Source: a virus. From it: a DNA stretch of 64,000 bases. The DNA lies in the IMG/VR virus record IMGVR_UViG_3300025425_000012, one strand, 5' to 3'. Positions 3,018-48,585 of this stretch are shown here, piece after piece; position 1 is the first letter of the stretch, and each line of letters opens with the position of its first letter. Below the pieces are notes generated by a model, which worked only from the letters and a program-made list of their open reading frames with translations, searched no databases and was not told where the DNA came from. The position numbers and the translations under genes were made by a program.

Positions 3018-3275
3018 TCACCCCAATTTATACAGCAAGTGACCAACTTCGTCAGTAACTCTTTGTTTAAACTCTGGAAAGGATATAGTATCTTCACTTT
3101 TACAAAATTGTAGATTAAGAGGATGCTCAACACCATCAATATATGTAAATAGGAAAATATCATCATTGGGGAAACAACGCATAGAAACATTGTATGCTAC
3201 TTTGTTTATTGTTATACGCATGACTCTCCAATAAAAATAGGCCCGTTCTGTTGCAAGGTGGAGCCCATACCCCAT
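3018..3275 (-). CDS. hypothetical protein
   Basis: 85-aa ORF on the coding strand of the minus block. Confidence 0.3.
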   Translation of the reverse strand: MGYGLHLATERAYFYWRVMRITINKVAYNVSMRCFPNDDIFLFTYIDGVEHPLNLQFCKSEDTISFPEFKQRVTDEVGHLLYKLG

Positions 3276-3721
3276 GTCGTTACGCTGCTAGAGCGTAACC
3301 CATAGGTGCACTATTTTTGTTTGCATCTATAAAGTTTCTTGCGGTTACAGTCGCTTGCGCACTGGCTTCTAGCTTACTCTTTGATACCTGTCGATCCTAT
3401 TTCGACCCCATCATCTACCTACTAAGTTCATTCTTTATCGTTACTAAGCGCTTAGCATGAATATAACGAGTTATCGTAGTAGGTAGGTGGTGGAGTCGCT
3501 GGGTACTGCCCCCAGGTCCAGAATATCTCCAATTCACATAATTGAAGCGATGATTTTATTATACTTCGTTTCTTAGTAGCTTTTCTAAATCTTTTTCATG
3601 TGGCTCATACTCTACCCATAGATCAGGACCAGAGATTTCCCCATGTTGTGGAATGTTACGAGCAGCTATTACACCTGATAAAAAGGCGTGTTTTAGCATA
3701 CGTGCAATTAGCAGTGTCATG

Positions 3722-21544: not shown

Positions 21545-21794
21545 TTAACTGCTATCACTTTTGAAAAATTCTATTACTCGGGATTGTGGGTCACCACCTT
21601 TCTAGGTAATAGGTAAAGACTCTAATAAGCGGCTTCCCTGTTTCGCAATAAGCGGTGCCCAGATTAGAATTGTGATAGAAGCGACAGTTAATTCTTTTAT
21701 ATAGTATAACGCTTCCTGCCCCACCCCTCGCCTTCTAAGCGAGACCTTAACGGTGGAAGGACGGTCCGGGGTTCGATTCCTCCAGGGAGTACCA
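21545..21794 (+). ncRNA. promoter-driven structured leader / ncRNA with tRNA-like 3' domain (T-arm CGGGG-TTCGATT-CCTCC, ...AGGGAGT-A-CCA)
   Basis: No ORF. Direct repeats AATAAGCGG x2. T-loop and ACCA end present but no matching 5' acceptor strand found. Confidence 0.3.
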
Positions 21795-25733: not shown

Positions 25734-26002
25734 TGACTATTAAGATCATTTCAGAAGGTGGGTTCTGTCCTGTACAAATTGAAGGTACAGTAGATGGGTT
25801 GCCTTTTTACTTTAGAGCACGAGGATCAGCGTGGTCTCTAAGCATTGCAGATACAGCAACAGGTGATCCTCTAGATAGTGGCTGGTACTATACTCAGTCT
25901 TACAGCGATTTACCTTTCTCTGCTGGTTGGATGACCTTAGCTGAGGCTCGTACATTTCTTGAACAAGCTGTGCTTATTTGGAGAACACAAAATACTTTTT
26001 AA
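25734..26002 (+). CDS. hypothetical protein
   Basis: MTIKIISEGGF... The internal start avoids overlap with the upstream membrane ORF. Confidence 0.3.
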
Positions 26003-26029
26003 GATTTTCGGGGAGTTAGCTCAGAGGTA

Positions 26030-26171
26030 GAGTACCTGGTACGCGATATCAGGAGGTCGGAACTGTAACATGCGCGGCATTTACAAATATCAGCTGTAAC
26101 TTTTGTAAATGTGATATAACAGTAAGGGTTCGAATCCCCCACTTCTCACCATAAAGATTAATAAAAATGAA
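26030..26171 (+). tRNA. tRNA-like gene with ~70-nt insertion (Arg-GCG-like anticodon arm; possible intron or disrupted tRNA)
   Basis: Acceptor GGGGAGT/ACTTCTC (two G.U), D GCTC-AGAGGTA-GAGT, stem CTGGT/ATCAG with loop ACGCGAT, then an insert carrying a perfect 10-bp hairpin CATTTACAAA...TTTGTAAATG. The T-stem is weak (3 bp). Confidence 0.3.
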
Positions 26172-26349
26172 TTGTTTATACTGTAACCATATGCTAACTT
26201 CAAGATACGAATGGTTTGTGAGCGATACTGATAAAGATAATTGTATTCAGTGTCCTAACTGTAACCATTTCTTAGAAGTATACCACGAGTGTGGAGTGTT
26301 AGATAATTACGACTGTCTAGAAATAATAAGTAAATATAAGGAAAGCTAA
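26167..26349 (+). CDS. zinc-ribbon protein
   Basis: CLYCNH...CPNCNH. Confidence 0.3.
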   Translation: MNCLYCNHMLTSRYEWFVSDTDKDNCIQCPNCNHFLEVYHECGVLDNYDCLEIISKYKES

Positions 26350-27632: not shown

Positions 27633-27707
27633 GCCTGTATAGCATTGTGGCAATGCAGCAGCCTTCAAAACTGACGTAAGTGGGTTCGACACCCTCTACA
27701 GGCACCA
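27633..27707 (+). tRNA. tRNA with anticodon TCA (reads UGA): putative opal-suppressor tRNA; amino-acid identity uncertain (Gly/Trp-like)
   Basis: Perfect 7-bp acceptor GCCTGTA/TACAGGC, D GCAT-TGTGGCA-ATGC, anticodon loop CTTCAAA (U33, A37), T GTGGG-TTCGACA-CCCTC, A-CCA. The anticodon stem is weak (3 bp: GCAGC/ACTGA). The anticodon arm is paralogous to the tRNA-Gly(UCC)-like gene at 28526. Confidence 0.45.
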
Positions 27708-28525: not shown

Positions 28526-28608
28526 GCGCGCATAACTTCGTGGAGATTGGTATCTTCAGCAGCCTTCCAAGCTGTGAGTAAGGAGTTCGATTCTCCATGC
28601 CCGCTCCA
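28526..28608 (+). tRNA. tRNA-Gly (anticodon TCC)-like with expanded D region
   Basis: 3' two-thirds (CAGCCTTCCAAGCTGT GAGTA AGGAGTTCGATTCTCCA TGCCCGC T CCA) closely parallels E. coli glyT. Acceptor GCGCGCA/TGCCCGC has one C.C mismatch. The D region is about 7 nt longer than canonical. Confidence 0.4.
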
Positions 28609-29823: not shown

Positions 29824-29909
29824 GCTCTAGTGGCGGAATGGTAGACGCAGCAGTCTCAAAAATTGTCCGAAGATAGTAGGTGCAGGTTCGACTCCTGTCT
29901 AGAGCACCA
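29824..29909 (+). tRNA. tRNA-Leu (anticodon CAA)
   Basis: Perfect acceptor GCTCTAG/CTAGAGC, D GGCGGAATGGTAGACGC, stem GCAGT/ATTGT, loop CTCAAAA, long variable arm CCGAAGATAGTAGG, T GCAGG-TTCGACT-CCTGT, A-CCA. Confidence 0.65.
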
Positions 29910-29911
29910 AT

Positions 29912-30079
29912 ACTCCCGTAGCTCAGATGGTAGAGCAGCCTTTAGTAGCTTAGTTATTATGTACAGGAAAGTTAACAAGAATGTACACAAGATCTTAGTG
30001 AACACGGTGTGTCGCAGCAAACTTAGCAAATCTGTGCACAGATAGCTAAACTTAGGTTCGAGTCCTGCCGGGGGTTCCA
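29912..30079 (+). tRNA. tRNA-like gene with ~95-nt insertion (possible intron-containing/disrupted tRNA)
   Basis: 5' ACTCCCG-TA-GCTC-AGATGGTA-GAGC and 3' TTAGG-TTCGAGT-CCTGC-CGGGGGT-T-CCA pair as an acceptor (ACTCCCG/CGGGGGT). The insert contains a 14-nt palindrome ATCTGTGCACAGAT. The anticodon arm cannot be placed. Confidence 0.3.
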
Positions 30080-30136
30080 AATAGCAGTTTAGATTACTAG
30101 ATGTTTATATAGTATTCTAAACTATAAAGGATTTAC

Positions 30137-31217: not shown

Positions 31218-32255
31218 ATGCACGACACTGTAGTATTTATTGGCAGGTTCCAGCCTTTACATTTGGGACACGAAGCTGTTATTCGCGCAGCTTTAGAAAA
31301 GGGTAAACAAGTTATTGTAGCCGTTGGCTCTAGCTTTGCTTCCCGCACGACGCGAAACCCCTTTACATTTGAAGAACGCAAGCATATGCTTGAAACCGTG
31401 TTTTGTGATGAACCACGGTTAAAAGTCGTGCCTATTGCGGACTATCCTTACGACGATAATAAATGGGTTAATGCTGTTCGCAAGCAAGTAGCTAAGCATA
31501 CTAAGCCTACAGACTCTATTGCTCTTATTGGCTATGCAAAAGATGAAACATCCTACTATTTAAACATCTTTCGTGATTGGGATTCTATTAATGTTCCGGG
31601 ACATGAAAAACTCAACGCGACAGATCTTAGAGTTGAGTTATTTAGTATTGTTCTTGAATGGGAACTTTATAATAACGAGCTGTTATGTAATGGTAAAACT
31701 CTATCCAGTAGGATGATATCAATACTAGATAAACTAGTTGTGAAACCAGAATTTGTACAACTATCTAAAGAGTATGCGCTTATCCAAACCTACAAAGAAG
31801 CTTGGTCTGTTGCACCTTATGAGCCTACTTTTCATACAGTAGATGCTCTTGTTGTTCAGTCTGGTCATGTTCTTCTTGTTAAACGTAAAGCTGCTCCTGG
31901 CATAGGGTTGTGGGCGCTTCCTGGAGGGTTTCTAAACCCTAAAGAAACTACAAAAGACGGAGCACTTCGTGAGCTTCGAGAAGAAACTAAAATTAAAGTA
32001 TCTCAGACTATCTTAGAAAGCTCAATCAAAGGCAAGCAAGTCTTTGATGAACCTAACCGCTCTACTCGCGGTCGAACAATTACTACTGCTTTTCACTTTC
32101 AACTATCTGATAAGTTTGATTTCCCTAAAGTTAAAGGTTCAGATGATGCAGAAAAAGCTAAATGGGTTCCTTTCGAGCGTATTCGTTCACAGGATATGTT
32201 TGAAGATCACTATCACATTATTGACTACTTTCTTAATATCGCAGGTGATGCATGA
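31218..32255 (+). CDS. natV: bifunctional NMN adenylyltransferase / Nudix ADP-ribose pyrophosphatase (NadM-Nudix, phage NatV type)
   Basis: N-terminal VVFIGRFQPLHLGHEAVI (HxGH nucleotidyltransferase). C-terminal Nudix box GGFLNPKETTKDGALRELREETKI. Confidence 0.8.
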   Translation: MHDTVVFIGRFQPLHLGHEAVIRAALEKGKQVIVAVGSSFASRTTRNPFTFEERKHMLETVFCDEPRLKVVPIADYPYDDNKWVNAVRKQVAKHTKPTDSIALIGYAKDETSYYLNIFRDWDSINVPGHEKLNATDLRVELFSIVLEWELYNNELLCNGKTLSSRMISILDKLVVKPEFVQLSKEYALIQTYKEAWSVAPYEPTFHTVDALVVQSGHVLLVKRKAAPGIGLWALPGGFLNPKETTKDGALRELREETKIKVSQTILESSIKGKQVFDEPNRSTRGRTITTAFHFQLSDKFDFPKVKGSDDAEKAKWVPFERIRSQDMFEDHYHIIDYFLNIAGDA

Positions 32256-32450
32256 AACGTAGAGTAATAACATATAAGTACAAGCCAGGCTGGTGGGGTA
32301 TTATGGATTATAAAACCTATGACACTACAGAAGCTAAGGTTGATGCTTTTATTAAAGTCTTTACTAAAACATTACCAAAATACTACCACGTAACAGTAAT
32401 AACTTTAGACGGATAGACCGTCGAACAGAACAGCAAAAGGAGTTTTTGCA

Positions 32451-33956
32451 ATGAAAAATATTCTATCAGTACTAACCGCTATCCTACGAGTTGATGGCTA
32501 TAAGCCTTCCCAATGGGTACAAACACCTACTAACACTACGGGAATCAGTTCTTATATTGAGTCCCGTGGCGGAGCAGCAAAAAGTGTCTTCTTCGGCCCA
32601 CAAGCCTTTATTAAAGAGTATCTACTAGTACCTATTACAGTAAGCGATGTTAAGTTTGCAAAAGCTGTATTTGCGATTTATGGCGCACCCTTCAATGAAG
32701 AAGGTTGGATGACTATTGTAAACGAGTATGGCGGCTTTCTACCTCTTGAGATTGAGGCAGTACCAGAAGGTACTTATATGGAGACACGCAACGTACAGGT
32801 ACAGGTTACTGCTACTGATGATCGTCTAGCATGGTTGACCTCGTATGTTGAAACCGCGCTTCTACGAGGTGTATGGTATCCTTCTACCGTTGCTAGTGAG
32901 TCAAGAGAATACAAAGTTATGTTGTTAAAAGGTCTGTATGCAACCTCTGATATTCCTATAGATGTTCTACGTGATGTAGTAGTAAAGTTCTCGCTGCATG
33001 ACTTTGGTGCTCGGGGCGCTTCTTCTTCAGAAACAGCTGTATTAGGTGGTATGTCACACCTTGTTAACTTCTGGGGAACAGATACTGTTGAAGGACTTAT
33101 CGGAGCGTATAGCTTCTATAATGCTGATATTACGAGTGCAGATGCTCCACCAGTCGGTAGGACTGTTCCTGCCTCTGAGCATAGTGCTATCACTTCTTGG
33201 GGCCGTGCTAATGAAGCTGCTGCTTTTGAAAATATGATTGATCAGTTTAGTGAGCCAGGTTCTATCTATGCTTGCGTTTCTGATAGTTTTGATATTTACA
33301 ACGCAACTTCAAATATCTGGGGAACTCAACTAAAAGATAAGGTAATTGCTTCTGGGGGTACCCTAGTTGTACGCCCTGACTCAGGTGATCCACTTACTAT
33401 GCCTATCAAAGTACTTGAAATGTTAGCTGAAAAGTTTGGCTATACTGTAAATAGCAAAGGGTATAAGGTACTTGCAGTACGTAAGAGCGATGGAAGCCCT
33501 ATTGTTAAAGTAATTCAGGGGGATGGTCTAGATAAGAAATCACTTCCTATTCTTATTGCCAATATCATAAGTGCTGGTTTTAGTCTTGAAAACATTGCTT
33601 TTGGTATGGGCGGTGGTCTACTTCAAAATGTTAATCGTGACACCTTGAAATATGCAATGAAAGCTTCTGCAATCCGTGTAGGAGAAGGTGACTGGGTAGG
33701 TTTCTCTAAAGACCCTGTTACTGATCCAGGTAAAAAGTCTAAAGAAGGACGCCTTGGCCTTATCTATACTTGCGGTATTGGTAGCTGTAGCTTTAAGACT
33801 GTACCTAAGCATATTGCTGACGAAAAAGGCAAAAATGTTATGCGAGTCGTATATAGAAACGGTAAGCTGCTAGTAGATGATAACTTTGAGACTGTTCGCG
33901 CGCGCGCAGAGGTTCAAGAGATTGAGTTTACTAACGAGCCTGTAGAAAGATACTAA
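32451..33956 (+). CDS. nadV: nicotinamide phosphoribosyltransferase (NAMPT, phage NadV type)
   Basis: 501 aa, full-length NAMPT family. Conserved DGYKPSQW, SVFFGPQAF, GARGASS, VRPDSGDP and IQGDGL segments. Confidence 0.85.
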   Translation: MKNILSVLTAILRVDGYKPSQWVQTPTNTTGISSYIESRGGAAKSVFFGPQAFIKEYLLVPITVSDVKFAKAVFAIYGAPFNEEGWMTIVNEYGGFLPLEIEAVPEGTYMETRNVQVQVTATDDRLAWLTSYVETALLRGVWYPSTVASESREYKVMLLKGLYATSDIPIDVLRDVVVKFSLHDFGARGASSSETAVLGGMSHLVNFWGTDTVEGLIGAYSFYNADITSADAPPVGRTVPASEHSAITSWGRANEAAAFENMIDQFSEPGSIYACVSDSFDIYNATSNIWGTQLKDKVIASGGTLVVRPDSGDPLTMPIKVLEMLAEKFGYTVNSKGYKVLAVRKSDGSPIVKVIQGDGLDKKSLPILIANIISAGFSLENIAFGMGGGLLQNVNRDTLKYAMKASAIRVGEGDWVGFSKDPVTDPGKKSKEGRLGLIYTCGIGSCSFKTVPKHIADEKGKNVMRVVYRNGKLLVDDNFETVRARAEVQEIEFTNEPVERY

Positions 33957-33961
33957 ACGCT

Positions 33962-33998
33962 ATAGAGAGGGGCTAACGCTCCTCTCTATTTCTGTTTT
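33962..33998 (+). terminator. rho-independent terminator (ATAGAGAGG...CCTCTCTAT + T-rich)
   Basis: 9-bp perfect stem directly after the nadV stop, followed by TTCTGTTTT. Confidence 0.65.
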
Positions 33999-34001
33999 AT
34001 A

Positions 34002-34040
34002 TTGCTAATATTGTCAAACAGTGTTATATTAAATTAACAT
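34002..34040 (+). promoter_or_regulatory. sigma70-like promoter TTGCTA-17-TATATT
   Basis: tattgctaatattgtcaaacagtgttatattaaattaacat. Confidence 0.5.
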
Positions 34041-34054
34041 ATAAAGGAAATATT

Positions 34055-34468
34055 ATGCAAGAACTAATCCAAGAAGCAGGCTATCGTCTTACCGTAGATT
34101 CGTGGGAGAATGATGGTGACGCAAATTGTACCGTACACAAAACTTATAAAGATAGAACAAATGCTTATTCTATTTTCACGTTCTTTAATACAATAAAAGA
34201 ACAAGACTTAATGAATTCTGTAGACCAGCTTACTTTAAAGCACTGTCATATTGCTAGAAAAGAGCTTATGCTAATACTACCACAAGAAGCTTTAGAGGAG
34301 CCTACAATGACTGACGAAGATTTAGAAAAAGATACTTGCCTAATGTCGTGTATTCAAGATCTGCTATACGAGTTTGGCCTAACCTCTGAGTACTTTTCTA
34401 TTAGGTATATTGAAAAAGTAAGCTTACATTACTTCTCAGACCCTGTATATGCAGAGGTTATTACATAA
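34055..34468 (+). CDS. hypothetical protein
   Basis: 137-aa ORF with RBS aaaggaaatattATG. Confidence 0.35.
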   Translation: MQELIQEAGYRLTVDSWENDGDANCTVHKTYKDRTNAYSIFTFFNTIKEQDLMNSVDQLTLKHCHIARKELMLILPQEALEEPTMTDEDLEKDTCLMSCIQDLLYEFGLTSEYFSIRYIEKVSLHYFSDPVYAEVIT

Positions 34469-34480
34469 GAAAGATGTATT

Positions 34481-35152
34481 ATGCACTATATTGGAGACGT
34501 TCACGGTAATTTCAGTGCTTACAAACACCTACTTAGTACCCTACCTGAGAGTGTTCAGATAGGGGATATGGGTGTCGGCTTTGGTCGCTGGGATGAAGAT
34601 CCTTTAGAACAAGCACGTGTTGATATGCTTGAGGTAGCTCAAGGAGCTAATCATAAGTTTATTCGTGGTAATCACGATAATCCAGCTGTTTGCAAGTCTA
34701 TGAACTCGTATATTGCTGACGGTACTGTAGTAGGTAATACTATGCATATCGGCGGGGCACTTTCTATTGATGCTAACATGCGTACTGCTGCTTGGGATTA
34801 TTGGGAAGATGAAGAGCTTTCTTATGATGAACTTTTTAACCTAATTGATGTATATGAGAAGGTAAAACCTGAAATTATGGTTACTCATGAATGCCCAGAA
34901 AGTGTGGTTGGGCACCTTTTTAATTGGTATGCTAAAGAGCAATGGCCTTCTAGAACTAGGCAGGCTTTTGATTCTATGTTTGCTATTCATAAGCCTAAGA
35001 TTTGGGTTTTTGGTCACTGGCATTATAGCGTATTTAGCACACAATTAGGTACTACGTTTATTTGTCTGAACGAGCTGAGCACAATCGAAATCACAGATAC
35101 TTATATCAGTGATATTAAACCTTTTAACCAAGGATGGTTACTAAAACCATGA
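34481..35152 (+). CDS. metallophosphoesterase (calcineurin-like; ApaH / PP-lambda-like)
   Basis: GDVHGN (motif I), GDMGVGFGRW (II), RGNHDNP (III) and ...HWHY metal ligands. Confidence 0.6.
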   Translation: MHYIGDVHGNFSAYKHLLSTLPESVQIGDMGVGFGRWDEDPLEQARVDMLEVAQGANHKFIRGNHDNPAVCKSMNSYIADGTVVGNTMHIGGALSIDANMRTAAWDYWEDEELSYDELFNLIDVYEKVKPEIMVTHECPESVVGHLFNWYAKEQWPSRTRQAFDSMFAIHKPKIWVFGHWHYSVFSTQLGTTFICLNELSTIEITDTYISDIKPFNQGWLLKP

Positions 35153-35586
35153 AGATACGTTACGTAAATTCAGATCTAACTACCGCCCGTGAGCGTTTTA
35201 TCGCTCACGGGTGTAATGCTCAAGGAGTTATGGGTTCAGGAGTAGCTAAAGCTATTAGAGCAAAGTGGCCTAGAGCATATAAAGAGTACAATGAACGATA
35301 CAAGATTGCAGGCTTAGGTACAGGTGAAGTTATACCTGTGTTTTATGATGATAAGACTATCCTTAACTGTATCACCCAAGAACGGTATGGCCGAAGCGGT
35401 GAACAATATGTAAGCTACGAAGCTGTTCGATTATGTATGAAGCTTATTAATAATAACTTCTCTATTGATAGCCGTGTTGCTATGTCTAAGATCGGATCGT
35501 CTTTAGGCGGTGGAGATTGGTCAATTATCTCTGAGATTATCGAGGCAGAATCTACAAATTTTATACCCATTGTCTACGAAATATAG
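35134..35586 (+). CDS. macro-domain protein (ADP-ribose binding/processing)
   Basis: IAHGCNAQGVMGSGVAKAIRAKWP fits the macro-domain diphosphate-binding loop (H..N..G.MG.GIA). Confidence 0.45.
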   Translation: MVTKTMKIRYVNSDLTTARERFIAHGCNAQGVMGSGVAKAIRAKWPRAYKEYNERYKIAGLGTGEVIPVFYDDKTILNCITQERYGRSGEQYVSYEAVRLCMKLINNNFSIDSRVAMSKIGSSLGGGDWSIISEIIEAESTNFIPIVYEI

Positions 35587-37129: not shown

Positions 37130-37500
37130 CACAATGACCTTGAAACCTATGTGCAATAATAACTACAAAGGTGACAGTCTGGAGAGTGACAGACATTACA
37201 GAAGACCCTGCATACGGTCCAGGGTCTATAAACATAAAATACAGGTTACTCTGTAGGACTCTGAGCCGCGCTAGATATGGCCCGAACGTAAGGTTCAAGA
37301 AGTATCAGGCTAGGGAACAGCTAGCCAACTAATTAAGCAGGGTTCAATTCCCTCGCTGATACCATACAGAAGACCCTGTATCAACCTGAGGGTCGTTAAA
37401 TATGAAGAGAAGGTAACTTCTCAGGTCTATGCTAGCACCGTGTTCCGAGGTCATACTCATAAGGAGAGAGTATCGGAAAGCTATGGAGTAGATAGCAAAC
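37130..37500 (+). ncRNA. ORF-free structured region with duplicated ACAGAAGACCCTG hairpin motif and a 62-nt tRNA-like minidomain (37303-37364, ends GGGTTCAATTCCC-TCGCTGATA-CCA)
   Basis: Two copies of acagaagaccctg...cagggtc / ...gagggtc hairpins at about 37195 and 37365. T-loop and CCA end present without a full cloverleaf. Confidence 0.3.
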
Positions 37501-38425: not shown

Positions 38426-38880
38426 AAGAATTGGCGGTATAGCGTCATTAAGGATACCATATAGCAATATATGCAAAGAGGTGATTTCTACATAACCTCA
38501 CTACTCTAGTAGTAGCCTATCTATAAAACCCTAAGTTAGTTGTAACCGTGTATGCATGAAGTGCAACGCTTCATTAATGGAGCTAGGTAAGAAGTTAAGT
38601 ATATAGTCCGAAAGGATAAGTCCAGGCCAACGGTGAGGACGAATACGGTGGGAGCTGTAACTACGTAATTCCAACTTAACGATTACTAAATACTAATAGG
38701 AGATTACGTTATAGTCTGACTATTCGCGTAGAAAGGCGACGTAATAACACAAACGGTGAGGGCTTTAACGAGCCAAAGTCGTGAAGTGTGGTTGAGTATC
38801 CCGCAAGGAGAAAAACAGGAGGTGTGTTGCATTTTGTATCTAACAAGGTATGAAGCAACTGGAACAGCACATCTTAGTAG
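38426..38880 (+). ncRNA. candidate long structured non-coding RNA (no ORF >60 aa, GC-richer than surroundings)
   Basis: Promoter-proximal, ORF-free, multiple local hairpins. Ends at a tRNA-like element. No family recognised by eye. Confidence 0.25.
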
Positions 38881-38952
38881 ATTAACTTAGTCCAATGGTT
38901 AGGACGTCTGATCCCACATCAGAAGTTAAGAGTTCGAGTCTCTTAGTTTTTA
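38881..38952 (+). tRNA. tRNA-like pseudo-element (CCA-anticodon-like loop TCCCACA; U.U mismatches in acceptor; followed by T-run)
   Basis: D GTCC-AATGGTTA-GGAC, stem TCTGA/TCAGA, T AAGAG-TTCGAGT-CTCTT. Acceptor ATTAACT/AGTTTTT pairs only 5 of 7. Positions 33 and 37 are both C, which is non-canonical. Confidence 0.3.
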
Positions 38953-39454
38953 TGAAAAAAGCGAAAGACTGTTCCGGTATATTGTTAAAAGTGCTTAATG
39001 CCTTAGTCGAAAGACAATAAGGCTCATGATAGCTCGCAAGGCAGGATTGATTGTTCGGAAAGAAGACGTAATAGTTTAGCGACTATGAACTGCCCGACGA
39101 AGGTAGACGGAAGATTGAAAGACGAGTAGCAATATGCGACAGGAGAACCGCCTCTCCTCAAAAAAGGCAGCACTGAGAGATACTAGGATAGCTTCGGCAC
39201 TTAGTGGATACGAATTAACGCTCCATAGCAACGGATACGGTACGGTTCTAAGGCTCTCACTCGATGGTGTAATCTCAGCCAATCTACAAAAAAACTTTGA
39301 TGTTAGATAAAGCTAACACGACCAGAGATAACACTGGGTGCTAAAGTGATACTAGCAAAACACAATCCGTGTCAGTTGCGTTACCCGCTGGCTAATGGTG
39401 GTATGCTGTGCCCACTAACTATAATTATTTTAATGATACATAGAATACCAATAT

Positions 39455-39528
39455 ACCTTGTGGACCCTTTTGATATGGGTATGGGCGCGAGTTCAATGTT
39501 CTAGGTTCGAATCCTGGACAAGGTACCA
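39455..39528 (+). tRNA. tRNA-like pseudo-element with degenerate anticodon arm
   Basis: Perfect acceptor ACCTTGT/ACAAGGT, D ACCC/GGGT, T CTAGG-TTCGAAT-CCTGG, A-CCA. The anticodon region TGGGCGCGAGTTCAATG has no stem. Confidence 0.3.
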
Positions 39529-39908: not shown

Positions 39909-40143
39909 AACTTTATTGCAGGATAGCCTTAAGCTAGATAAGTTGTGAAACTTATTGTGAGTTAAACCCTCTCTCCTGCAACCATATTCAAAGAAAGATT
40001 ATACAATGAACATTCAGAAGTCCCTCCAGCATCTACAGAATAGCGTCGCTTCTTTTAGCGCGGTGTCGGCTGATGAAGCGGATTCTAATGACTTGCAGGC
40101 TTTTGGTATGCTCTAAACATAGAGCAAAAGCATAATATACCAA

Positions 40144-40259: not shown

Positions 40260-40796
40260 GTGTCAAATATTAAATATCCGGCACTTGTTTTAAATGCTGA
40301 TTACAGTCCTATTAGTGTGTTTCCGCTATCTACTTGGGGTTTTGAAAGAACTTTACGAAACTTCTTAAAAGGAAGAATTACACCACTAGAGCACTATGAT
40401 GTTACGCTACGTTCTCCGTCTTTTGAGTACCAGCCGCCTTCGGTTATTGCTTTAAAGAAATACGTAAAACGACCACAGAATGTTGTATTCAATAGAGTAA
40501 ACATTTTCAGACGAGATAACTTTACTTGTCAGTATTGTGGTGATGTTCACTTGCCAAGAGATCTAACTTTTGACCATGTTGTTCCTCGCGCTAATGGCGG
40601 TCCAACTTCGTATGAAAACATTGTAGCATGTTGTGTTCCTTGTAATACTCGTAAAGGTTCATCTACTCACATGAAACCTGTGAGAACACCTAAAGTACCT
40701 TCTGTTAGAGATCTAGCACGAGCTAGTCCTCCAAAAGAAAAACTTCACGCTTCTTGGATAGACTATCTATACTGGAGCGGTGTATTAGAACAGTAA
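40260..40796 (+). CDS. HNH endonuclease
   Basis: CQYCGDVHLPRDLTFDHVVPRANGGPTSYENIVACCVPCNTRKG (HNH core with Zn Cys ligands). GTG start as listed. Confidence 0.7.
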   Translation: MSNIKYPALVLNADYSPISVFPLSTWGFERTLRNFLKGRITPLEHYDVTLRSPSFEYQPPSVIALKKYVKRPQNVVFNRVNIFRRDNFTCQYCGDVHLPRDLTFDHVVPRANGGPTSYENIVACCVPCNTRKGSSTHMKPVRTPKVPSVRDLARASPPKEKLHASWIDYLYWSGVLEQ

Positions 40797-42979: not shown

Positions 42980-43063
42980 GCGGAGAGTACCGGCAAGGTG
43001 TCAAAGTGGGATGGAATTCCATGGGCACGGCAACGTGCGGGTTTCGATTACTCTACTCTCCGC
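42980..43063 (+). tRNA. tRNA-like element (type-II length, non-canonical 5' half with 12-nt palindrome ATGGAATTCCAT)
   Basis: Acceptor GGAGAGT/ACTCTCC, T CGGGT-TTCGATT-ACTCT, G-CCA. No canonical D or anticodon arm. Confidence 0.25.
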
Positions 43064-43180
43064 CACTTGTCCGATCCGGCGGCAATCAATAATTTCCGGC
43101 TGACATTAAGAATTCTCTTTGTTATATATTGCACGATTTATGGCAAGGGACGGGAGGGGGTGCAACCCTCCCTAGAGATT

Positions 43181-43256
43181 GGGGTCGCATGTTCCAAGGG
43201 GGCGACGGCGCTTTGCAAGCACTGTGTGAAGGGTTCGATTCCCTTCGATTCCACCA
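43181..43256 (+). tRNA. tRNA-Ala (anticodon TGC) with G3:U70 identity pair; weak D-stem
   Basis: 76 nt with canonical numbering. Acceptor GGGGTCG/CGATTCC (G3.U70, G4.U69), stem GGCGC/GCACT, loop TTTGCAA, T AAGGG-TTCGATT-CCCTT, A-CCA. The D-stem TGTT/GCGA is poor. Confidence 0.45.
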
Positions 43257-45495: not shown

Positions 45496-46437
45496 ATGAA
45501 ACATGAAGAAAAGTCTTTAAGCCCTTATAGATATATAACTCGTCCAGATTTAGCTATGCCTGAGTGGAGTGCAGACTCAACAGGAAGCCATTGGCAGCCT
45601 GGAGGTTATGGTAAAAACAGCATTCCTGCTGGTGTATACGATTATCAAGCTCCTTGGGGTTCTGCTCCTTTTCTACGTCGTGTAGACTTCGTTGGAGACT
45701 CAATGGTAGAGCTACCTGATGATCCTACCTCAGAAGTACTCGCACATATTAAAGACTTTTGGTCTAAAGAACGCGCCTTTAGAGACCTTGGTATAACCTT
45801 TAAAAGAGGTATTATACTATATGGACCTCCAGGCGGTGGTAAAACTGCAACAGTATTCAGACTTGCAAAAGAGCTAGAAGCTAACGATGCTATTATGTTA
45901 GTTGCTCAGAGTGCCGGTGAAGCGACCGCAGGTATTCAAATGATTAAAGTTCTAGAACCTAAACGTAAAATCGTTGTAATTCTAGAAGACTTAGATGGTA
46001 TCGTAAGACATGGTGATGAATCTCTAACACACTTGCTAGATGGTGGAACAGATGTAGATAGTGTACTATTCTTAGCTACTACTAACTACCCTGAACGTCT
46101 ACCTAACCGTATTCTAAATAGACCAAGCCGTTTTGATGTGCGTATGCGTATCGGAATGCCTTCCGAAGCAGCAAGACGTGTTTATATTGAACATGTTGTT
46201 AGCGGTAATCTACTTGTAAATATTGACGAGCTAGTTGCAAAAACTTCTGGTTTAGGTATTGCAGTAATTAAAGAAGTAATTATCCTTACTCAGATCTTTG
46301 AGCATACTATTGATGAAGCTATCTCTAAAGTTAAGAATACTACACTAATTTCTGATGAAGAAATTGATAACGACGATCAAATTGATAACGACGATCAAAT
46401 AGAGCGGGGGCTGGACGGTAAGGCAACGCACTGCTAA
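45496..46437 (+). CDS. AAA+ ATPase (classical AAA clade: Walker A, Walker B, SRH with Arg finger)
   Basis: ILYGPPGGGKTA (Walker A), VVILEDLDG (Walker B), TNYPERLPNRILNRPSRFD (second region of homology). The C-terminal tail has an 18-bp tandem repeat (IDNDDQ x2). The 3' end abuts or overlaps tRNA-Ser. Confidence 0.7.
   Translation: MKHEEKSLSPYRYITRPDLAMPEWSADSTGSHWQPGGYGKNSIPAGVYDYQAPWGSAPFLRRVDFVGDSMVELPDDPTSEVLAHIKDFWSKERAFRDLGITFKRGIILYGPPGGGKTATVFRLAKELEANDAIMLVAQSAGEATAGIQMIKVLEPKRKIVVILEDLDGIVRHGDESLTHLLDGGTDVDSVLFLATTNYPERLPNRILNRPSRFDVRMRIGMPSEAARRVYIEHVVSGNLLVNIDELVAKTSGLGIAVIKEVIILTQIFEHTIDEAISKVKNTTLISDEEIDNDDQIDNDDQIERGLDGKATHC
46363..46398 (+). repeat. 18-bp tandem direct repeat x2 (attgataacgacgatcaa) in AAA+ gene tail
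   Basis: Exact duplicate copies seen directly. Confidence 0.8.
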
Positions 46438-46491
46438 TGCGCAGGACACCTAATACGTGTTCACTGGGTTCGACTCCCAGTCGCTCTGCCA
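46401..46491 (+). tRNA. tRNA-Ser (anticodon GCT)
   Basis: Acceptor AGAGCGG/TCGCTCT (G7.U66), stem ACGCA/TGCGC, loop CTGCTAA, long variable arm, T CTGGG-TTCGACT-CCCAG, G-CCA. Confidence 0.55.
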
Positions 46492-46513
46492 ATTACATTT
46501 ATAAGGATATGAT

Positions 46514-46768
46514 ATGAGTATACCTACAACAGACCACTGGGCTGTGATTACTACTAGATATACTCATATACCTGCTGATGCTAGATCAATATCTCATCCC
46601 GGACATGGATACCCCGAGCATACTGAAGAAAGTATTGATTATAGCTCTTTTACTTCAGAAGCTGGTATGTTAGCCTACATAGATCAACGTAATTTAGCAG
46701 GAAAATGTGTAATAATTAAGGCACAGCCACTTAAACTAACTGTTACAACTACTGTAGCTGTTAAGTAA
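46514..46768 (+). CDS. hypothetical protein
   Basis: 84-aa ORF with RBS ataaggatatgatATG. Confidence 0.35.
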   Translation: MSIPTTDHWAVITTRYTHIPADARSISHPGHGYPEHTEESIDYSSFTSEAGMLAYIDQRNLAGKCVIIKAQPLKLTVTTTVAVK

Positions 46769-46785
46769 AAAAGTTAAAAAACATC

Positions 46786-46822
46786 TTGCTATACGGTTAA
46801 TTTTCCGTTATATTTAAATTAA
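46786..46822 (+). promoter_or_regulatory. sigma70-like promoter TTGCTA-17-TATATT
   Basis: acatcttgctatacggttaattttccgttatatttaaattaag. Confidence 0.5.
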
Positions 46823-46972
46823 GAAATCAAACAGACCGCACACGCGGCACACCATTTAACAAAGGACTTCAATTATGACTACTTCATGTATGTTTAAGAA
46901 TTATGAAAATCGTATTAAAACTCCTTGGAGTGCTATGTAAACGCGTCTGTAAACAAACAGAAGTTTTTATAG

Positions 46973-47003
46973 CCCTCCCAGTTTTACTGCGGAGGGTTTT
47001 TTA
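46973..47003 (+). terminator. rho-independent terminator (CCCTCC...GGAGGG + TTTTTT)
   Basis: agccctcccagttttactgcggagggttttttatt, immediately before tRNA-Cys. Confidence 0.65.
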
Positions 47004-47005
47004 TT

Positions 47006-47080
47006 GGTGCGGGAGCAAGATGGTTATGCGTCGGATTGCAACCCCGATTTAAGTCGGTTCGATTCCGACCCGTACTTCCA
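47006..47080 (+). tRNA. tRNA-Cys (anticodon GCA)
   Basis: Acceptor GGTGCGG/CCGTACT (two G.U), stem TCGGA/CCCGA, loop TTGCAAC, T GTCGG-TTCGATT-CCGAC, T-CCA. Confidence 0.5.
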
Positions 47081-47087
47081 AATTTAT

Positions 47088-47162
47088 GACGCTGTAACTC
47101 AGTGGAAGAGTACTCCCATCATAAGGGATTAGCCGTGAGTTCGAATCTCACCAGCGTTACCA
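47088..47162 (+). tRNA. tRNA-Met (anticodon CAT), third CAT tRNA
   Basis: Acceptor GACGCTG/CAGCGTT, D ACTC-AGTGGAA-GAGT, loop ATCATAA, T GTGAG-TTCGAAT-CTCAC, A-CCA. Confidence 0.6.
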
Positions 47163-47178
47163 ACTTAAGGACAATACA

Positions 47179-47388
47179 ATGCTTAATCTCAAAGATATGG
47201 TAAAAGGTGACAAACAAGTTACTTTTACGCGCGCTTTTGACGATGCTCTCTGGTATAAAACGGATTGCGGTTTTGAATTTCCTGTATCTTATGCAGAGAC
47301 TAAAGGTGCTACCTTTAAGGCAGTAGATAAGGCTATGTTTTTTATGCGGTACATTAGAAAACACATAGCGATTGTGCAACTTACATAA
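47179..47388 (+). CDS. hypothetical protein
   Basis: 69-aa ORF with RBS taaggacaatacaATG. Confidence 0.35.
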   Translation: MLNLKDMVKGDKQVTFTRAFDDALWYKTDCGFEFPVSYAETKGATFKAVDKAMFFMRYIRKHIAIVQLT

Positions 47389-47452
47389 ACATTAACCTTG
47401 CTAATCGGCCTGTTTTAATGTTATTGTAAGTAACAAAGAATAATATCTTATC

Positions 47453-48034
47453 TTAATATTTATTACCTTTTTGTAAATTTTCTGAAATAGTGAGGTATTG
47501 TAAATTACTTAATACGTGCAACCCGCAGACATTTTTACCTTTTAAAGGTATTATATGATCTACGTGATAACCTTTCGGACATTCTAAATAGAAATTTTTT
47601 ATACCTTTCTGGTCCCAAGATACAGACCTATTAATAAGTAAAGACCTACGTTCGGCAGTATAGCTTCTAAATAACTCTGAATTGTTAGTTTGGTATCTTC
47701 TATAACAAAAAATACACCACGAATTTACTCCGTCATAGCGTTTCTTGTTATAAGTAAAGTTTTTTATATCAAGCACGTTATCACAGTTACAACATATTTT
47801 TTTATTAATCTTACTTAATAAGAAGGAGCAAGGCTTAGCATTATTAACTACTCTATCAGGAAAAGTTCTTTTTAGCAGCTTACTAACACTTTGAGCGCTA
47901 ATACCTAACTCTATTTTTAGATTATAATTCTTCATACTTAGCACTTCTATAAACTTCTCATAAGTAACTTTTCTACTTGTAAAAGAGTATCCACTCTCAT
48001 TAAAAGCCTTATTTATCCAGTATTTTTTATTCAT
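47453..48034 (-). CDS. HNH homing endonuclease (minus strand, inside tRNA island)
   Basis: ...YHVDHIIPLKGKNVCGLHVLSNLQYLTISENLQKG (HNH). N-terminal basic DNA-binding region. This is the only minus-strand gene after 8.1 kb. Confidence 0.55.
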   Translation of the reverse strand: MNKKYWINKAFNESGYSFTSRKVTYEKFIEVLSMKNYNLKIELGISAQSVSKLLKRTFPDRVVNNAKPCSFLLSKINKKICCNCDNVLDIKNFTYNKKRYDGVNSWCIFCYRRYQTNNSELFRSYTAERRSLLINRSVSWDQKGIKNFYLECPKGYHVDHIIPLKGKNVCGLHVLSNLQYLTISENLQKGNKY

Positions 48035-48120
48035 TAGTTTCTCCTATATAACTATAGTATACAAACTTTCAAGGTTTAGCAACTGGTTTTTTAATATAAT
48101 TTACTTTTTTACTTAACAAC

Positions 48121-48196
48121 GAACCGGTAGCTCAGGGGTTAGAGCACGAGTCTTTTAAACTTGGTGTCCTGGGTTCGATTCCCAGTCGGTTCTCCA
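48121..48196 (+). tRNA. tRNA-Lys (anticodon TTT)
   Basis: Acceptor GAACCGG/TCGGTTC, D GCTC-AGGGGTTA-GAGC, stem CGAGT/ACTTG, loop CTTTTAA, T CTGGG-TTCGATT-CCCAG, T-CCA. Confidence 0.7.
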
Positions 48197-48213
48197 AAAT
48201 CTAGGAACATTAG

Positions 48214-48483
48214 ATGCAGTGGTATAAATTAGCTGACGTTCTACCAAACAAAGAAGAGTACGCAGTGTTACTATTTCCCTGTAAAAGCTCTATTGGTATA
48301 CTTTACACTGCCTCTAATACTCCTTATGCTATTAAACATGGTTTGTCTTCTGGTTATACTCATTGGGCTTATATAAAAGAAGCGCCGGGTCATGGAGACA
48401 TGATTACTTGGCAAGATAGTATAACAGTAGAAGAAGAGCAAGAAAGTTTAAAAGATAGTATCAAGCTTTTAAAATCATTATAA
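48214..48483 (+). CDS. hypothetical protein
   Basis: 89-aa ORF. Confidence 0.35.
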   Translation: MQWYKLADVLPNKEEYAVLLFPCKSSIGILYTASNTPYAIKHGLSSGYTHWAYIKEAPGHGDMITWQDSITVEEEQESLKDSIKLLKSL

Positions 48484-48492
48484 ACAATATAT

Positions 48493-48567
48493 GCGTTGGT
48501 AGCTCAGTGGTAGAGCACTTGGTTGAAGCCCAGGGTGTCAGGAGTTCGATTCTCCTCCTTCGCACCA
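48493..48567 (+). tRNA. tRNA-Phe (anticodon GAA); acceptor with two U.U mismatches (4-69, 5-68)
   Basis: D GCTC-AGTGGTA-GAGC, stem CTTGG/CCAGG, loop TTGAAGC, T AGGAG-TTCGATT-CTCCT, A-CCA. Acceptor GCGTTGG/CCTTCGC. Confidence 0.55.
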
Positions 48568-48585
48568 AATATAGGTATAAAGCTA

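What the first reader, a model, noticed from the sequence alone, without database searches (positions are those of the whole stretch)
26030..26171. tRNA-like gene interrupted by a ~70-nt insert carrying a perfect 10-bp hairpin
Acceptor (with two G.U), D arm, a candidate Arg-GCG anticodon arm, T-loop and CCA are all present. About 70 extra nt sit between the anticodon arm and T arm, including CATTTACAAA...TTTGTAAATG. The T-stem has only 3 bp.

This could be an intron-containing tRNA, a tRNA disrupted by a mini-insertion, or a tRNA-derived regulatory RNA. A second similar case lies at 29912.
Basis: seen in the sequence. Interest (0 to 1): 0.55.

Follow-up and report, generated by a model that had tools for sequence, protein, structure and literature searches.

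The report
Phage tRNA-like gene split by hairpin
A large uncultured bacteriophage carries a tRNA-shaped gene whose T-stem is interrupted by a unique 65-base hairpin and whose anticodon loop is abnormal, so it is more likely a non-decoding tRNA-like RNA or a disabled tRNA than a classical intron-containing tRNA.

Summary
It has a 7-bp acceptor stem (two G.U), a canonical D arm, a T-loop, A73 and an encoded CCA. It sits on the + strand inside a phage tRNA island.

Rfam's tRNA model scores it 27.1 bits (threshold 29) with a 68-nt insertion. The insert is best defined as 26061-26125 (65 nt). It splits the 5' strand of the T-stem (GG|GGG). Removing it in silico gives a 77-nt cloverleaf that ARAGORN scores 111.0, within the 102.7-122.0 range of the window's own tRNAs.

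Even then the anticodon arm is non-canonical: 19 nt, read as a 9-nt loop, a 6-bp stem with C33, or a 7-bp stem with a 5-nt loop. "Arg-GCG" is therefore not supported.

I found no group I/II intron, ribozyme or repeated element. No orthologue was found. Nine strain contigs are identical across the locus.

The case at 29912-30079 is real, and similar interrupted tRNA-likes occur in two distant phages. The island also holds several anticodon-less tRNA-like genes.

Best reading (0.42): a non-decoding tRNA-scaffold RNA that keeps its insert. Main rival: a young pseudogene (0.33).

The parts
26010..26016 (+). Acceptor stem, 5' strand GGGGAGU
   Evidence: Pairs 7/7 with 26141-26147 (two G.U)
26019..26033 (+). 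D arm: GCUC / AGAGGUA / GAGU, preceded by U8 A9
   Evidence: Canonical D-loop with G18 G19; aligned by the Rfam tRNA model
26035..26053 (+). Anticodon-arm-like hairpin CCUGGUA-CGCGA-UAUCAGG (19 nt, not 17)
   Evidence: Folds as a 7-bp stem with a 5-nt loop (z=-3.1). ARAGORN's alternative is a 5-bp stem CUGGU/AUCAG with loop ACGCGAU and C33
26054..26058 (+). Variable-loop-like AGGUC
   Evidence: Read from the sequence; typical 5-nt class I variable loop
26059..26060 (+). GG: outer two bases of the T-stem 5' strand, separated from the rest by the insert
   Evidence: Pairs with CC 26139-40. Excising 26061-26125 is the best of about 2100 in-silico deletions (ARAGORN 111.0)
26061..26125 (+). 65-nt insert. 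Closing stem ACUGU 26062-66 / ACAGU 26119-23; 10-11-bp perfect stem 26078-87 / 26102-11; 14-nt loop 26088-26101
   Evidence: Fold (insert alone z=-1.24). Not repeated elsewhere in the window. No Rfam family at E<=10
26126..26140 (+). T arm: GGG / UUCGAAU / CCCCC
   Evidence: Canonical T-loop; Rfam alignment
26141..26151 (+). Acceptor stem 3' strand ACUUCUC, discriminator A, encoded CCA
29912..30079 (+). Second interrupted tRNA-like gene (168 nt). Acceptor ACUCCCG/CGGGGGU, canonical D arm, T arm UUAGG-UUCGAGU-CCUGC, U73 and CCA. The anticodon arm and variable loop are replaced by a long hairpin of about 104-114 nt (29938-30051)
   Evidence: ARAGORN -i calls 'Thr(agt)' with a 94-nt intron but a weak stem. 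Fold. It starts 2 nt after the CCA of tRNA-Leu(CAA)

Best explanation
The locus is a tRNA-derived gene in the tRNA island of a phage of about 145 kb. It most likely yields a non-decoding, tRNA-shaped RNA of about 142 nt that keeps its insert.

Proposed mechanism:
1. The gene is transcribed with its + strand neighbours.
2. The intact acceptor stem, D arm and T-loop fold into the tRNA 'body'. The split T-stem (GG...GGG / CCCCC) closes around the insert, which forms its own hairpin. That hairpin protrudes on the variable-arm side as the third arm of a three-way junction.
3. This body is what RNase P and the 3'-end trimming enzymes recognise. The RNA would therefore be cut out at G26010 and trimmed to the encoded CCA at 26151, like the flanking tRNAs.
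4. The anticodon arm is closed into a 7-bp stem with a 5-nt loop, or has a 9-nt loop. The RNA therefore cannot read a codon.
5. Its role would be one of two things. It could be a stable tRNA scaffold that carries the hairpin. Or it could be a processing signal between the ORFs that end at 26002 and start at 26167.

Shown: the sequence anatomy, the exact position of the insert, and the absence of intron or ribozyme signatures.
Inferred: processing, stability and function.
For: 1. The tRNA body is intact despite two separate departures from a normal tRNA.
   - Acceptor 7/7, D stem 4/4, T stem 5/5 across the insert.
   - U8, G18 G19, the T-loop UUCGAAU, A73 and CCA are all present.

2. The insert is a self-contained hairpin whose ends pair right at the junction, so the flanks are brought together.
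   - The forced cloverleaf plus hairpin lies only 1.4-2.6 kcal/mol above the minimum free energy.

3. The same design recurs independently.
   - Case 2 in this window.
   - L027:5245-5361: Rfam tRNA 49 bits, my model 54.1 bits, fold z=-4.3.
   - L058:12197-12321: my model 51.6 bits.
   - The inserts are unrelated in sequence and sit at different sites between the D and T arms.

4. The same island holds other tRNA-like genes with perfect acceptor stems and CCA, but with stable hairpins in place of an anticodon loop.
   - 39455-39528: 5-bp stem with GCGA tetraloop.
   - 39916-39984: GUGA tetraloop.
   - 42982-43065: GCAA tetraloop.
   - 37302-37364.

5. Fusing tRNA modules to other RNAs is a theme of this genome.
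   - GOLLD RNA encloses tRNA-Trp.
   - Y-RNA-like units enclose tRNA-like domains next to a Ro60-like gene.

6. There is precedent. Phage T4 encodes stable RNAs of 139 and 119 nt, rnaC and rnaD, in its tRNA cluster. Their roles are unknown (PMC3014915). rnaC ends in a canonical T arm and contains long hairpins.
Against: - No orthologue was found, so there is no covariation or conservation test.
  - Nine strain contigs are 100% identical across the locus.
  - IMG/VR and metagenome pattern scans found only unrelated tRNAs or tmRNA ends.
  - The closest relative of the flanking protein is 58% identical, and its contig has no tRNA-like sequence in the 100 nt upstream.
- The fold is not unusually stable: whole gene z=-0.46, insert z=-1.24.
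- In a strain variant of case 2, seven SNPs cluster inside the insert. Two break predicted pairs and none is compensated. The insert interior therefore looks weakly constrained.
- The four inserts share no sequence and no common site. That fits sporadic insertion events as well as it fits a functional class.
- My detection methods required intact acceptor, D and T arms. 'Intact bodies' are therefore partly a selection effect.
- The island also contains weaker tRNA-like remnants, which shows that tRNA genes turn over there.
Confidence: 0.42

Rival explanations
1. Young tRNA pseudogene. A class I tRNA gene in a fast-turnover tRNA array was inactivated by insertion of 65 nt of filler or palindromic DNA into the T-stem, and by a 2-nt change in the anticodon arm. 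It has not yet accumulated further decay. The product, if made, has no function.
For: - There are two independent lesions: the insert and the 19-nt anticodon arm.
- The score is below the Rfam threshold, and ARAGORN makes no default call.
- The island contains many weaker tRNA-like remnants at 10-21 bits next to real tRNAs.
- The interrupted genes in other phages have unrelated inserts at different sites, and most related tRNA arrays have none.
- The insert fold is not significant.
- SNPs in the case-2 insert are not compensated.
- The phage already has Arg(ACG) and Arg(UCU), and anticodons for all 20 amino acids once the missed Ala, Tyr and Gly genes are counted.
Against: - Every helix and every universal residue of the tRNA body, plus the CCA, is intact.
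- The insert ends pair exactly at the junction in all four examples, which random filler need not do.
- The extra 2 nt in the anticodon arm extend the helix rather than disrupt it.
- Sister tRNA-likes carry GNRA-capped stems that look selected.
- Phage genomes usually purge dead DNA.
Confidence: 0.33
2. True intervening sequence. The 65 nt are removed from the precursor, by an unknown phage or host endonuclease plus an RNA ligase, or by self-splicing. The T-stem is re-joined between positions 50 and 51 to give a 77-nt tRNA.
For: - Exact excision of 26061-26125 restores GGGGG/CCCCC. The resulting 77-nt sequence folds by minimum free energy into a cloverleaf, and ARAGORN scores it 111.0. The window's own tRNAs score 102.7-122.0.
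- It aligns end to end with ordinary phage tRNAs at 72-78% identity.
- The insert folds so that both junctions lie side by side.
- In L058 the insert sits in an anticodon loop with a perfect 5-bp stem. Two alternative excisions there give canonical loops, CU-UCU-AA or CU-UUG-AA.
- The window encodes an RNA-repair-type HAD domain.
Against: - Any clean insertion can be 'excised' in silico, so restoration is not evidence of splicing.
- No group I/II intron or ribozyme family matches at E<=10, and 65 nt is far below the size of known self-splicing introns.
- Known bacterial tRNA introns are group I (rarely group II) and lie in the anticodon loop (PMC13011429).
- There is no bulge-helix-bulge motif.
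- No RNA ligase or splicing endonuclease was found among the window's ORFs of 150 aa or more.
- The spliced product would still have a non-canonical anticodon loop.
Confidence: 0.12
3. Y-RNA-like partner of the phage's Ro60-like protein. The tRNA-like body mimics tRNA as in bacterial YrlA, and the long hairpin is the protein-binding stem.
For: - The 513-aa protein at 54426-55967 (DUF2828/DUF7788/VWA) has as its best structural matches Deinococcus Rsr (E 6.6e-6) and Ro60 (E 1e-5), over its full length.
- Bacterial and phage Y RNAs contain tRNA-like domains (PMC4201824, PMC12135203).
- In L058 the interrupted tRNA-like lies 1.5 kb downstream of the Ro-like gene on the same strand.
Against: - The target is 28 kb from the Ro-like gene.
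- It lacks a terminal stem, the GNCGAA motif and any YrlA match.
- Much better candidates for the partner RNA exist: five tandem units at 53792-54410 with covarying terminal stems and a conserved TT(A/T)CAGCAAA motif. That motif also lies next to the Ro-like genes in L057 and L058 and in no other fetched locus.
- The target does not carry that motif on its own strand. Its 9-nt complementarity to the motif is at noise level (BLAST E=11).
Confidence: 0.06

Closest known systems
Phage T4 small stable RNAs rnaC (species 1, 139 nt) and rnaD (species 2, 119 nt)
   Same: - They are encoded inside the phage tRNA cluster, on the tRNA strand, directly after a tRNA.
- They are of similar size (139 and 119 nt against 142 and 168 nt).
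- rnaC ends with a canonical T arm, CCGGG-UUCGAAU-CCCGG, and contains long hairpins (fold z=-4.6).
- Their roles are unknown (PMC3014915).
   Different: - There is no sequence similarity.
- T4 rnaC has no clear 7-bp acceptor stem, D arm or encoded CCA in my fold.
- The target is a complete cloverleaf with one discrete insert.
Bacterial tRNA genes with group I introns (cyanobacteria, Patescibacteria and others)
   Same: A bacterial-type tRNA gene interrupted by extra sequence that annotation tools miss (PMC13011429).
   Different: - Those introns lie in the anticodon loop, are about 200 nt or longer, and have a recognisable catalytic core.
- Here the insert is 65 nt, lies in the T-stem, and has no Rfam intron match.
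Archaeal non-canonical tRNA introns (bulge-helix-bulge; found at many positions, including the T arm) - from my own knowledge
   Same: A short intervening sequence outside the anticodon loop, which can be removed exactly to restore a stem.
   Different: - They need a bulge-helix-bulge motif and the archaeal splicing endonuclease.
- The junction here is a plain three-way junction.
- The context is a phage of a bacterium: alpha-type permuted tmRNA and bacterial-type tRNAs.
YrlA-type Y RNAs bound by Ro60/Rsr
   Same: A tRNA mimic (acceptor, D and T arms) joined to a long stem. A Ro60-like gene lies in the same island.
   Different: - YrlA has its ends in the Ro-binding stem and a closed 'acceptor'. 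It carries a GNCGAA motif and lies within 4 kb of the Ro gene (PMC4201824).
- None of these holds for the target.
tRNA pseudogenes and fragments in tRNA arrays
   Same: A sub-threshold tRNA score, structural lesions, and a location in a duplicating array that contains other remnants.
   Different: The body is fully preserved, CCA included, and the insert is a tidy hairpin closing at the junction.
Engineered 'tRNA scaffold' RNAs - from my own knowledge
   Same: A structured RNA inserted into a tRNA body, so that the chimera is processed and stabilised like a tRNA. Case 2 and L058 match this design closely.
   Different: It is a laboratory design with the insert in the anticodon stem. No natural function has been shown here.

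Membership tests
Canonical tRNA (Rfam RF00005) | Score at or above the family gathering threshold (29 bits) | tested here: not met
   27.1 bits with a 68-nt insertion. ARAGORN at default settings makes no call
Canonical tRNA (Rfam RF00005) | Acceptor 7 bp, D stem 4 bp, T-loop UUCRANY, discriminator and CCA | tested here: met
   All are present
Canonical tRNA (Rfam RF00005) | 17-nt anticodon arm: 5-bp stem and a 7-nt loop with U33 | tested here: not met
   The arm is 19 nt. It reads as a 9-nt loop UACGCGAUA, as loop ACGCGAU with C33, or as a 7-bp stem with a 5-nt loop
Class II tRNA (long variable arm) | Variable arm of roughly 10-24 nt between the anticodon and T stems, with an intact 5-bp T-stem | tested here: not met
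   The extra region is 65-68 nt, and the contiguous T-stem has only 3 bp
Group I or II intron-containing tRNA | Recognisable intron catalytic core | tested here: not met
   No intron family matches at E<=10 in 25900-26300 or at E<=5 across the window. The insert is only 65 nt
Group I or II intron-containing tRNA | Insertion within the anticodon loop | tested here: not met
   The insert lies between T-stem positions 50 and 51
Self-cleaving ribozyme insert (hammerhead, twister, HDV-like and others) | Match to a ribozyme covariance model | tested here: not met
   No match at E<=10
Archaeal-type bulge-helix-bulge intron | Two 3-nt bulges separated by a 4-bp helix at the splice sites | tested here: not met
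   By inspection of the folds, the junction has 1 nt and 2 nt unpaired, flanking a 5-bp intron helix
YrlA / Y RNA | Rfam RF02553 match; GNCGAA(N)G motif near the 5' end; terminal stem formed by the 5' and 3' ends | tested here: not met
   No YrlA hit on the target. The only weak hit, 26.5 bits against a threshold of 69, lies at 29856-29963. The motif is absent
YrlA / Y RNA | Encoded within about 4 kb of a Ro60 orthologue on the same strand | tested here: not met
   The Ro60-like gene is at 54426-55967: same strand, but 28 kb away
Local Ro-associated repeat units (53792-54410) | Covarying 7-bp terminal stem followed by TT(A/T)CAGCAAA | tested here: not met
   The motif is absent from the + strand of the target. 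Exact copies occur only at 53915-54375
Repeated mobile mini-element (MITE-like) | Further copies of the insert in the genome; target-site duplication | tested here: not met
   There is no second copy in the 64 kb. There is no duplication, because all five Gs are needed for the stem. The remaining 81 kb or so of the genome was not searched
tRNA pseudogene | Loss of function with no purifying selection | not testable with these tools
   No diverged orthologues exist in the collections searched. The strain contigs are identical

The most novel reading that the evidence does not exclude
Large T4-like environmental phages encode a class of 'expanded tRNA' RNAs. These are complete tRNA bodies carrying a private hairpin of 40-95 nt in or next to the anticodon, variable or T-stem region. 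The hairpin is either spliced at non-canonical sites by a phage RNA-repair system, or kept as the working part of a stable tRNA-scaffold RNA. The target, with its insert at T-stem position 50/51, would be the first such case. It might also help explain T4's 50-year-old orphan RNAs rnaC and rnaD.
Probability: 0.15. Interest if true: 0.75.

Novelty: new variant of a known kind. Interest (0 to 1): 0.45.

Why it matters
All known bacterial and phage tRNA introns are self-splicing and sit in the anticodon loop. If the insert is removed, this would be a protein-dependent or otherwise new splicing event inside a T-stem.

If the insert is kept, it would be a natural counterpart of the engineered tRNA scaffold. 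It would also add to the very short list of phage tRNA-cluster RNAs of unknown role, such as T4 rnaC and rnaD.

If it is a pseudogene, it still has practical value. It shows that standard tRNA finders miss or mislabel about a third of the tRNA-related genes in this island.

The surroundings make this contig a good place to study how phages re-use the tRNA fold. They include GOLLD, a permuted tmRNA, a Ro60-like gene with candidate Y-like RNAs, and several anticodon-less tRNA-like genes.

Tried and rejected
1. ARAGORN intron mode on the target. Only at a lowered threshold does it give 'tRNA-Tyr(gta)' with a 39-nt intron, a different and mismatched acceptor stem and a poor D arm. I rejected this as an artefact.

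2. Orthologue hunting found nothing usable.
   - Exact 5' and 3' halves in IMG/VR: 0 hits.
   - Gapped pattern AGGTCGG-N45-75-GGGTTCGAATCCCCC in IMG/VR: only tmRNA-like ends.
   - The same pattern in metagenomes: only ordinary tRNA-Ser and similar.
   - GenBank phages: only generic tRNA similarity.
   - Flanking NT5C protein: best non-self homologue is 58% identical, with no tRNA-like sequence upstream, and more distant homologues are not syntenic.

3. Orthologues of the L027 example in IMG/VR: the scans found only L027 itself.

4. Mobile-element idea: the insert is not repeated in the window.

5. Promoter or terminator inside the insert: none reached the scan criteria.

6. Antisense or kissing link between the loop GCUGUAACU and the Ro-associated AGUUACAGC motif: this is a 9-nt match at noise level.

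7. My own tRNA covariance model does not bridge the T-stem insert. It returned only partial hits for the target.

8. Deletion scans for case 2 and for L027 give several equally good solutions, so the anticodon identities 'Thr(agt)' and 'Asn/Cys' are not trustworthy.

9. Strain comparison gives no information for the target, because there are no differences.

Full report
**Setting**

The window is part of a phage contig of about 145 kb. It has been assembled repeatedly from Antarctic saline-lake and other metagenomes (ENA ERZ27315400 k141_23333, JGI 3300005931 and others).

- ARAGORN finds 29 tRNA genes, all on the + strand between 22 and 54 kb, plus a permuted tmRNA.
- Rfam adds a GOLLD RNA at 38819-39281 that encloses a tRNA-Trp.
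- No similar DNA exists in GenBank phages beyond generic tRNA matches.

**Checking the observation**

Its parts are:

| Part | Coordinates | Sequence |
|---|---|---|
| Acceptor stem | 26010-16 / 26141-47 | GGGGAGU / ACUUCUC, 7 bp, G2.U71 and G4.U69 |
| Positions 8-9 | 26017-18 | U8 A9 |
| D arm | 26019-33 | GCUC-AGAGGUA-GAGU |
| Position 26 | 26034 | A |
| Anticodon-like hairpin | 26035-53 | CCUGGUACGCGAUAUCAGG (19 nt) |
| Variable-loop-like | 26054-58 | AGGUC |
| Outer T-stem | 26059-60 | GG |
| Insert | 26061-26125 | 65 nt |
| T arm | 26126-40 | GGG-UUCGAAU-CCCCC |
| 3' end | 26148-51 | A73, CCA |

- The perfect 10-bp stem is CAUUUACAAA (26078-87) with UUUGUAAAUG (26102-11), around a 14-nt loop.
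- Rfam's tRNA model aligns the whole gene at 27.1 bits. The threshold is 29, and E is 0.0012 for the local search. It places 68 nt as an insertion in the variable region.
- ARAGORN does not call it at default settings.
- Perfect hairpins of 10 bp or more are about six times more frequent in the window than in shuffles (12 distinct against 1.8). The hairpin alone is therefore not special.
- The combination of a full tRNA body, an encoded CCA, the correct strand and a position in the island is clearly not chance.

**Where the insert sits**

I deleted every segment i..j (about 2100 variants) and scored each product with ARAGORN.

- The best is removal of 26061-26125. This joins GG to GGG and restores a GGGGG/CCCCC T-stem.
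- The 77-nt product scores 111.0, inside the range of the window's own tRNAs (102.7-122.0).
- It folds by minimum free energy into a cloverleaf.
- It aligns end to end with ordinary phage tRNAs at 72-78% identity.

The '3-bp T-stem' is therefore a 5-bp stem whose 5' strand is split between positions 50 and 51.

With the insert in place, the cloverleaf plus insert hairpin is only 1.4-2.6 kcal/mol above the unconstrained minimum. The insert's ends pair (ACUGU/ACAGU) right at the junction, giving a three-way junction.

This in-silico restoration shows a clean insertion. It does not show splicing.

**The anticodon arm**

Even after excision the arm is not canonical. It is 19 nt and can be read in three ways:
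- a 5-bp stem with a 9-nt loop UACGCGAUA;
- the ARAGORN drawing, with loop ACGCGAU, C33 instead of the near-universal U33, and an extra base at position 26;
- the thermodynamically preferred 7-bp stem with a 5-nt loop (z=-3.1).

All aligned tRNAs of the window have the usual loop with T at position 33. 'Arg-GCG' is therefore not a supportable identity.

The phage already has Arg(ACG) and Arg(UCU). Once three genes missed by ARAGORN are added, it has anticodons for all 20 amino acids. Those genes are Tyr 51971-52054, Ala 43181-43256 with G3:U70, and a Gly(UCC)-like gene at 28526-28604.

**What the insert is not**

- No group I/II intron, ribozyme or other Rfam family matches the region at E<=10.
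- The insert does not recur anywhere in the 64 kb.
- There is no target-site duplication.
- There is no promoter- or terminator-like site in it.
- Its fold is not significantly more stable than shuffles (z=-1.24; whole gene z=-0.46).
- The junction geometry is not a bulge-helix-bulge.

**Conservation**

Nine contigs from different samples are identical over the 370 nt examined. Elsewhere these strains differ by 0.04-0.6%, in clusters.

No diverged orthologue could be found:
- exact and gapped DNA patterns in IMG/VR and the metagenome collection returned nothing relevant;
- the nearest homologue of the downstream NT5C-like protein is only 58% identical, and its short contig has no tRNA-like sequence in the 100 nt upstream.

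The decisive comparative test could therefore not be run.

**The second case and the class**

The gene at 29912-30079 starts 2 nt after the CCA of tRNA-Leu(CAA).

- It has a 7/7 acceptor stem, a textbook D arm, a T arm and U73-CCA.
- The 115 nt between the D and T stems form one long irregular hairpin. There is no credible anticodon stem.
- ARAGORN's 'Thr(agt) with a 94-nt intron' rests on three base pairs, and several deletions score equally.
- In one strain (L011), seven SNPs cluster at 29966-29990 inside this hairpin and none falls in the tRNA body. Two break predicted pairs and none is compensated.

I then searched about 470 kb of distantly related phage loci. These share the NMNAT-Nudix or Ro-like genes at about 45-60% identity. 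I required an intact acceptor stem, D arm, T arm and CCA, and a length of 95-260 nt. This recovered two more examples:
- L027:5245-5361: 117 nt, Rfam tRNA 49 bits, fold z=-4.3, with a perfect 7-bp hairpin between the D arm and an anticodon-like arm.
- L058:12197-12321: 125 nt, with a perfect 5-bp anticodon stem and 48 extra nt in the loop.

My own tRNA model scores these 54.1 and 51.6 bits.

The four inserts share no sequence and lie at different positions. The search design could only find inserts between the D and T arms, so their location is not evidence.

**Other non-canonical tRNA-like genes in the island**

A structural scan, my covariance model and folding revealed several more + strand elements. 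They have perfect acceptor stems and CCA but no anticodon loop:
- 39455-39528: the 'anticodon arm' is a 5-bp stem with a GCGA tetraloop.
- 39916-39984: 8-bp acceptor stem and a GUGA-capped hairpin.
- 42982-43065: a GCAA-capped hairpin.
- 37302-37364: no D arm.
- Tyr-like variants at 51870-51958 and 52757-52839, with 8-9-bp acceptor stems.

Weaker remnants also exist (10-21 bits). The island therefore contains both apparently designed tRNA mimics and decaying copies. This is why the functional and pseudogene readings stay close.

**Ro60-like gene and candidate Y-like RNAs (a side result)**

- The 513-aa ORF at 54426-55967 (Pfam DUF2828/DUF7788/VWA) has no sequence match in the PDB.
- Its AlphaFold model (pLDDT 75) has as its three best fold matches Deinococcus Rsr and vertebrate Ro60. 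These matches are full length, with E 7e-6 to 1.5e-5 and TM 0.43-0.52.
- Directly upstream lie five tandem units (53792-54410). Each has a 7-nt 5' strand, a conserved TT(A/T)CAGCAAA motif, a variable interior and a complementary 3' strand.
- The closing stems covary: AGGAUUG/CAAUCCU, AGGUUAG/CUAACCU, AGGACAG/CUGUCCU, AGGAUGA/UCAUCCU and GGUUUG/CAAACC.
- One unit encloses the 'tRNA-Arg(tct)' called at 53810-53883, which lacks CCA. Two others contain T-arm-like hairpins.
- The same motif and stems flank the Ro-like genes in L057 and L058, and occur in no other fetched locus.
- This is the YrlA-type logic of terminal stem, 5' motif and tRNA-like domain (PMC4201824, PMC12135203), but with a different motif.

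The target does not belong to this family. It lacks the motif and the terminal stem, and it lies 28 kb away. Its 9-nt loop complementarity to the motif is at noise level.

**Comparison with what is known**

- Bacterial tRNA introns are group I (rarely group II) and lie in the anticodon loop (PMC13011429). The target fails each defining feature.
- The closest functional analogue I could test is phage T4. Its tRNA cluster ends with two stable RNAs of unknown role, rnaC (139 nt) and rnaD (119 nt) (PMC3014915). rnaC contains long hairpins and a canonical T arm at its 3' end (z=-4.6).
- The target differs in being a complete cloverleaf with one discrete insert.

**Verdict**

I rank four readings:
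1. A non-decoding tRNA-scaffold RNA that keeps its insert and is processed like its neighbours (0.42).
2. A young pseudogene (0.33).
3. A genuinely spliced intervening sequence (0.12).
4. A Y-RNA-like partner of the Ro60-like protein (0.06).

The remainder is unassigned. The finding is a real and unusual variant of a known kind. Its importance depends on an RNA-level experiment or on finding diverged orthologues.

Noticed in passing
window 54426-55967 (+) and 53792-54410 (+); L057 9759-9950; L058 9161-9200 and 10690-10830: The ORF is a Ro60/Rsr-like protein (DUF2828/DUF7788/VWA; fold matches 2NVO, 9NFA and 9NEP). It is preceded by five tandem RNA-like units with covarying 7-bp terminal stems and a conserved TT(A/T)CAGCAAA motif. 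Some units enclose tRNA-like domains, including the 'tRNA-Arg(tct)' at 53810-53883, which lacks CCA. The same motif lies next to Ro-like genes in two distant phages. These are candidate cognate Y-like RNAs for this protein family.
   Followed up: partly
window 39455-39528, 39916-39984, 42982-43065, 37302-37364 (+): These tRNA-like genes have perfect acceptor stems and CCA, but the anticodon arm is replaced by short stable hairpins capped with GNRA tetraloops (GCGA, GUGA, GCAA), or the D arm is missing. ARAGORN and Rfam do not call them at threshold. 39455-39528 lies about 170 nt after the GOLLD RNA.
   Followed up: partly
window 51971-52054, 43181-43256, 28526-28604, 51870-51958, 52757-52839 (+): ARAGORN at default settings misses several likely real tRNAs: Tyr(GUA), Ala(UGC, G3:U70, odd D arm) and a Gly(UCC)-like gene. 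There are also two further Tyr(GUA)-like genes with 8-9-bp acceptor stems, which recall the 8/4 and 9/3 tRNAs described in PMC5389517.
   Followed up: partly
window 38819-39281 (+): GOLLD RNA (167 bits) with tRNA-Trp(CCA) at 38881-38952 embedded in its 5' part, as described for some GOLLD linkers (PMC12286853).
   Followed up: no
window 3189-3591 (-) and 21700-21794 (+): A permuted alpha-type tmRNA lies on the minus strand. Separately, a tmRNA-like 3' end (GGACGGUCCGGGGUUCGAUUCCUCCAGGGAGUACCA) on the + strand has no Rfam match, and I could not find its 5' partner.
   Followed up: no
L027 5245-5361; L058 12197-12321 and 12326-12398: Interrupted tRNA-like genes in other uncultured phages. One is 117 nt, with a perfect 7-bp hairpin inserted after the D arm. 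Another is 125 nt, with 48 extra nt in the anticodon loop. A tRNA-like mini-gene of about 70 nt follows the second one.
   Followed up: partly
window 29966-29990 and 30094-30126: Strain polymorphism. Seven SNPs are packed into 25 nt of the case-2 insert in contig L011. Contigs L009, L011 and L015 carry an extra segment of about 121 nt just downstream of case 2 that the window lacks.
   Followed up: partly
window 27633-27707 (+): ARAGORN labels this 'tRNA-SeC(tca)', but it has ordinary class I size (75 nt, Rfam tRNA 48.5 bits). It is possibly a UGA-reading suppressor or a Trp(UCA) tRNA.
   Followed up: no
window 31218-35586, 45496-49124, 40260-40796 (+): Auxiliary genes interleaved with the tRNAs: NMNAT-Nudix and NAMPT (NAD salvage), a metallophosphatase, a macro domain, an AAA ATPase, a HAD domain of 'Swiss army knife' RNA-repair proteins, and HNH endonucleases.
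   Followed up: partly
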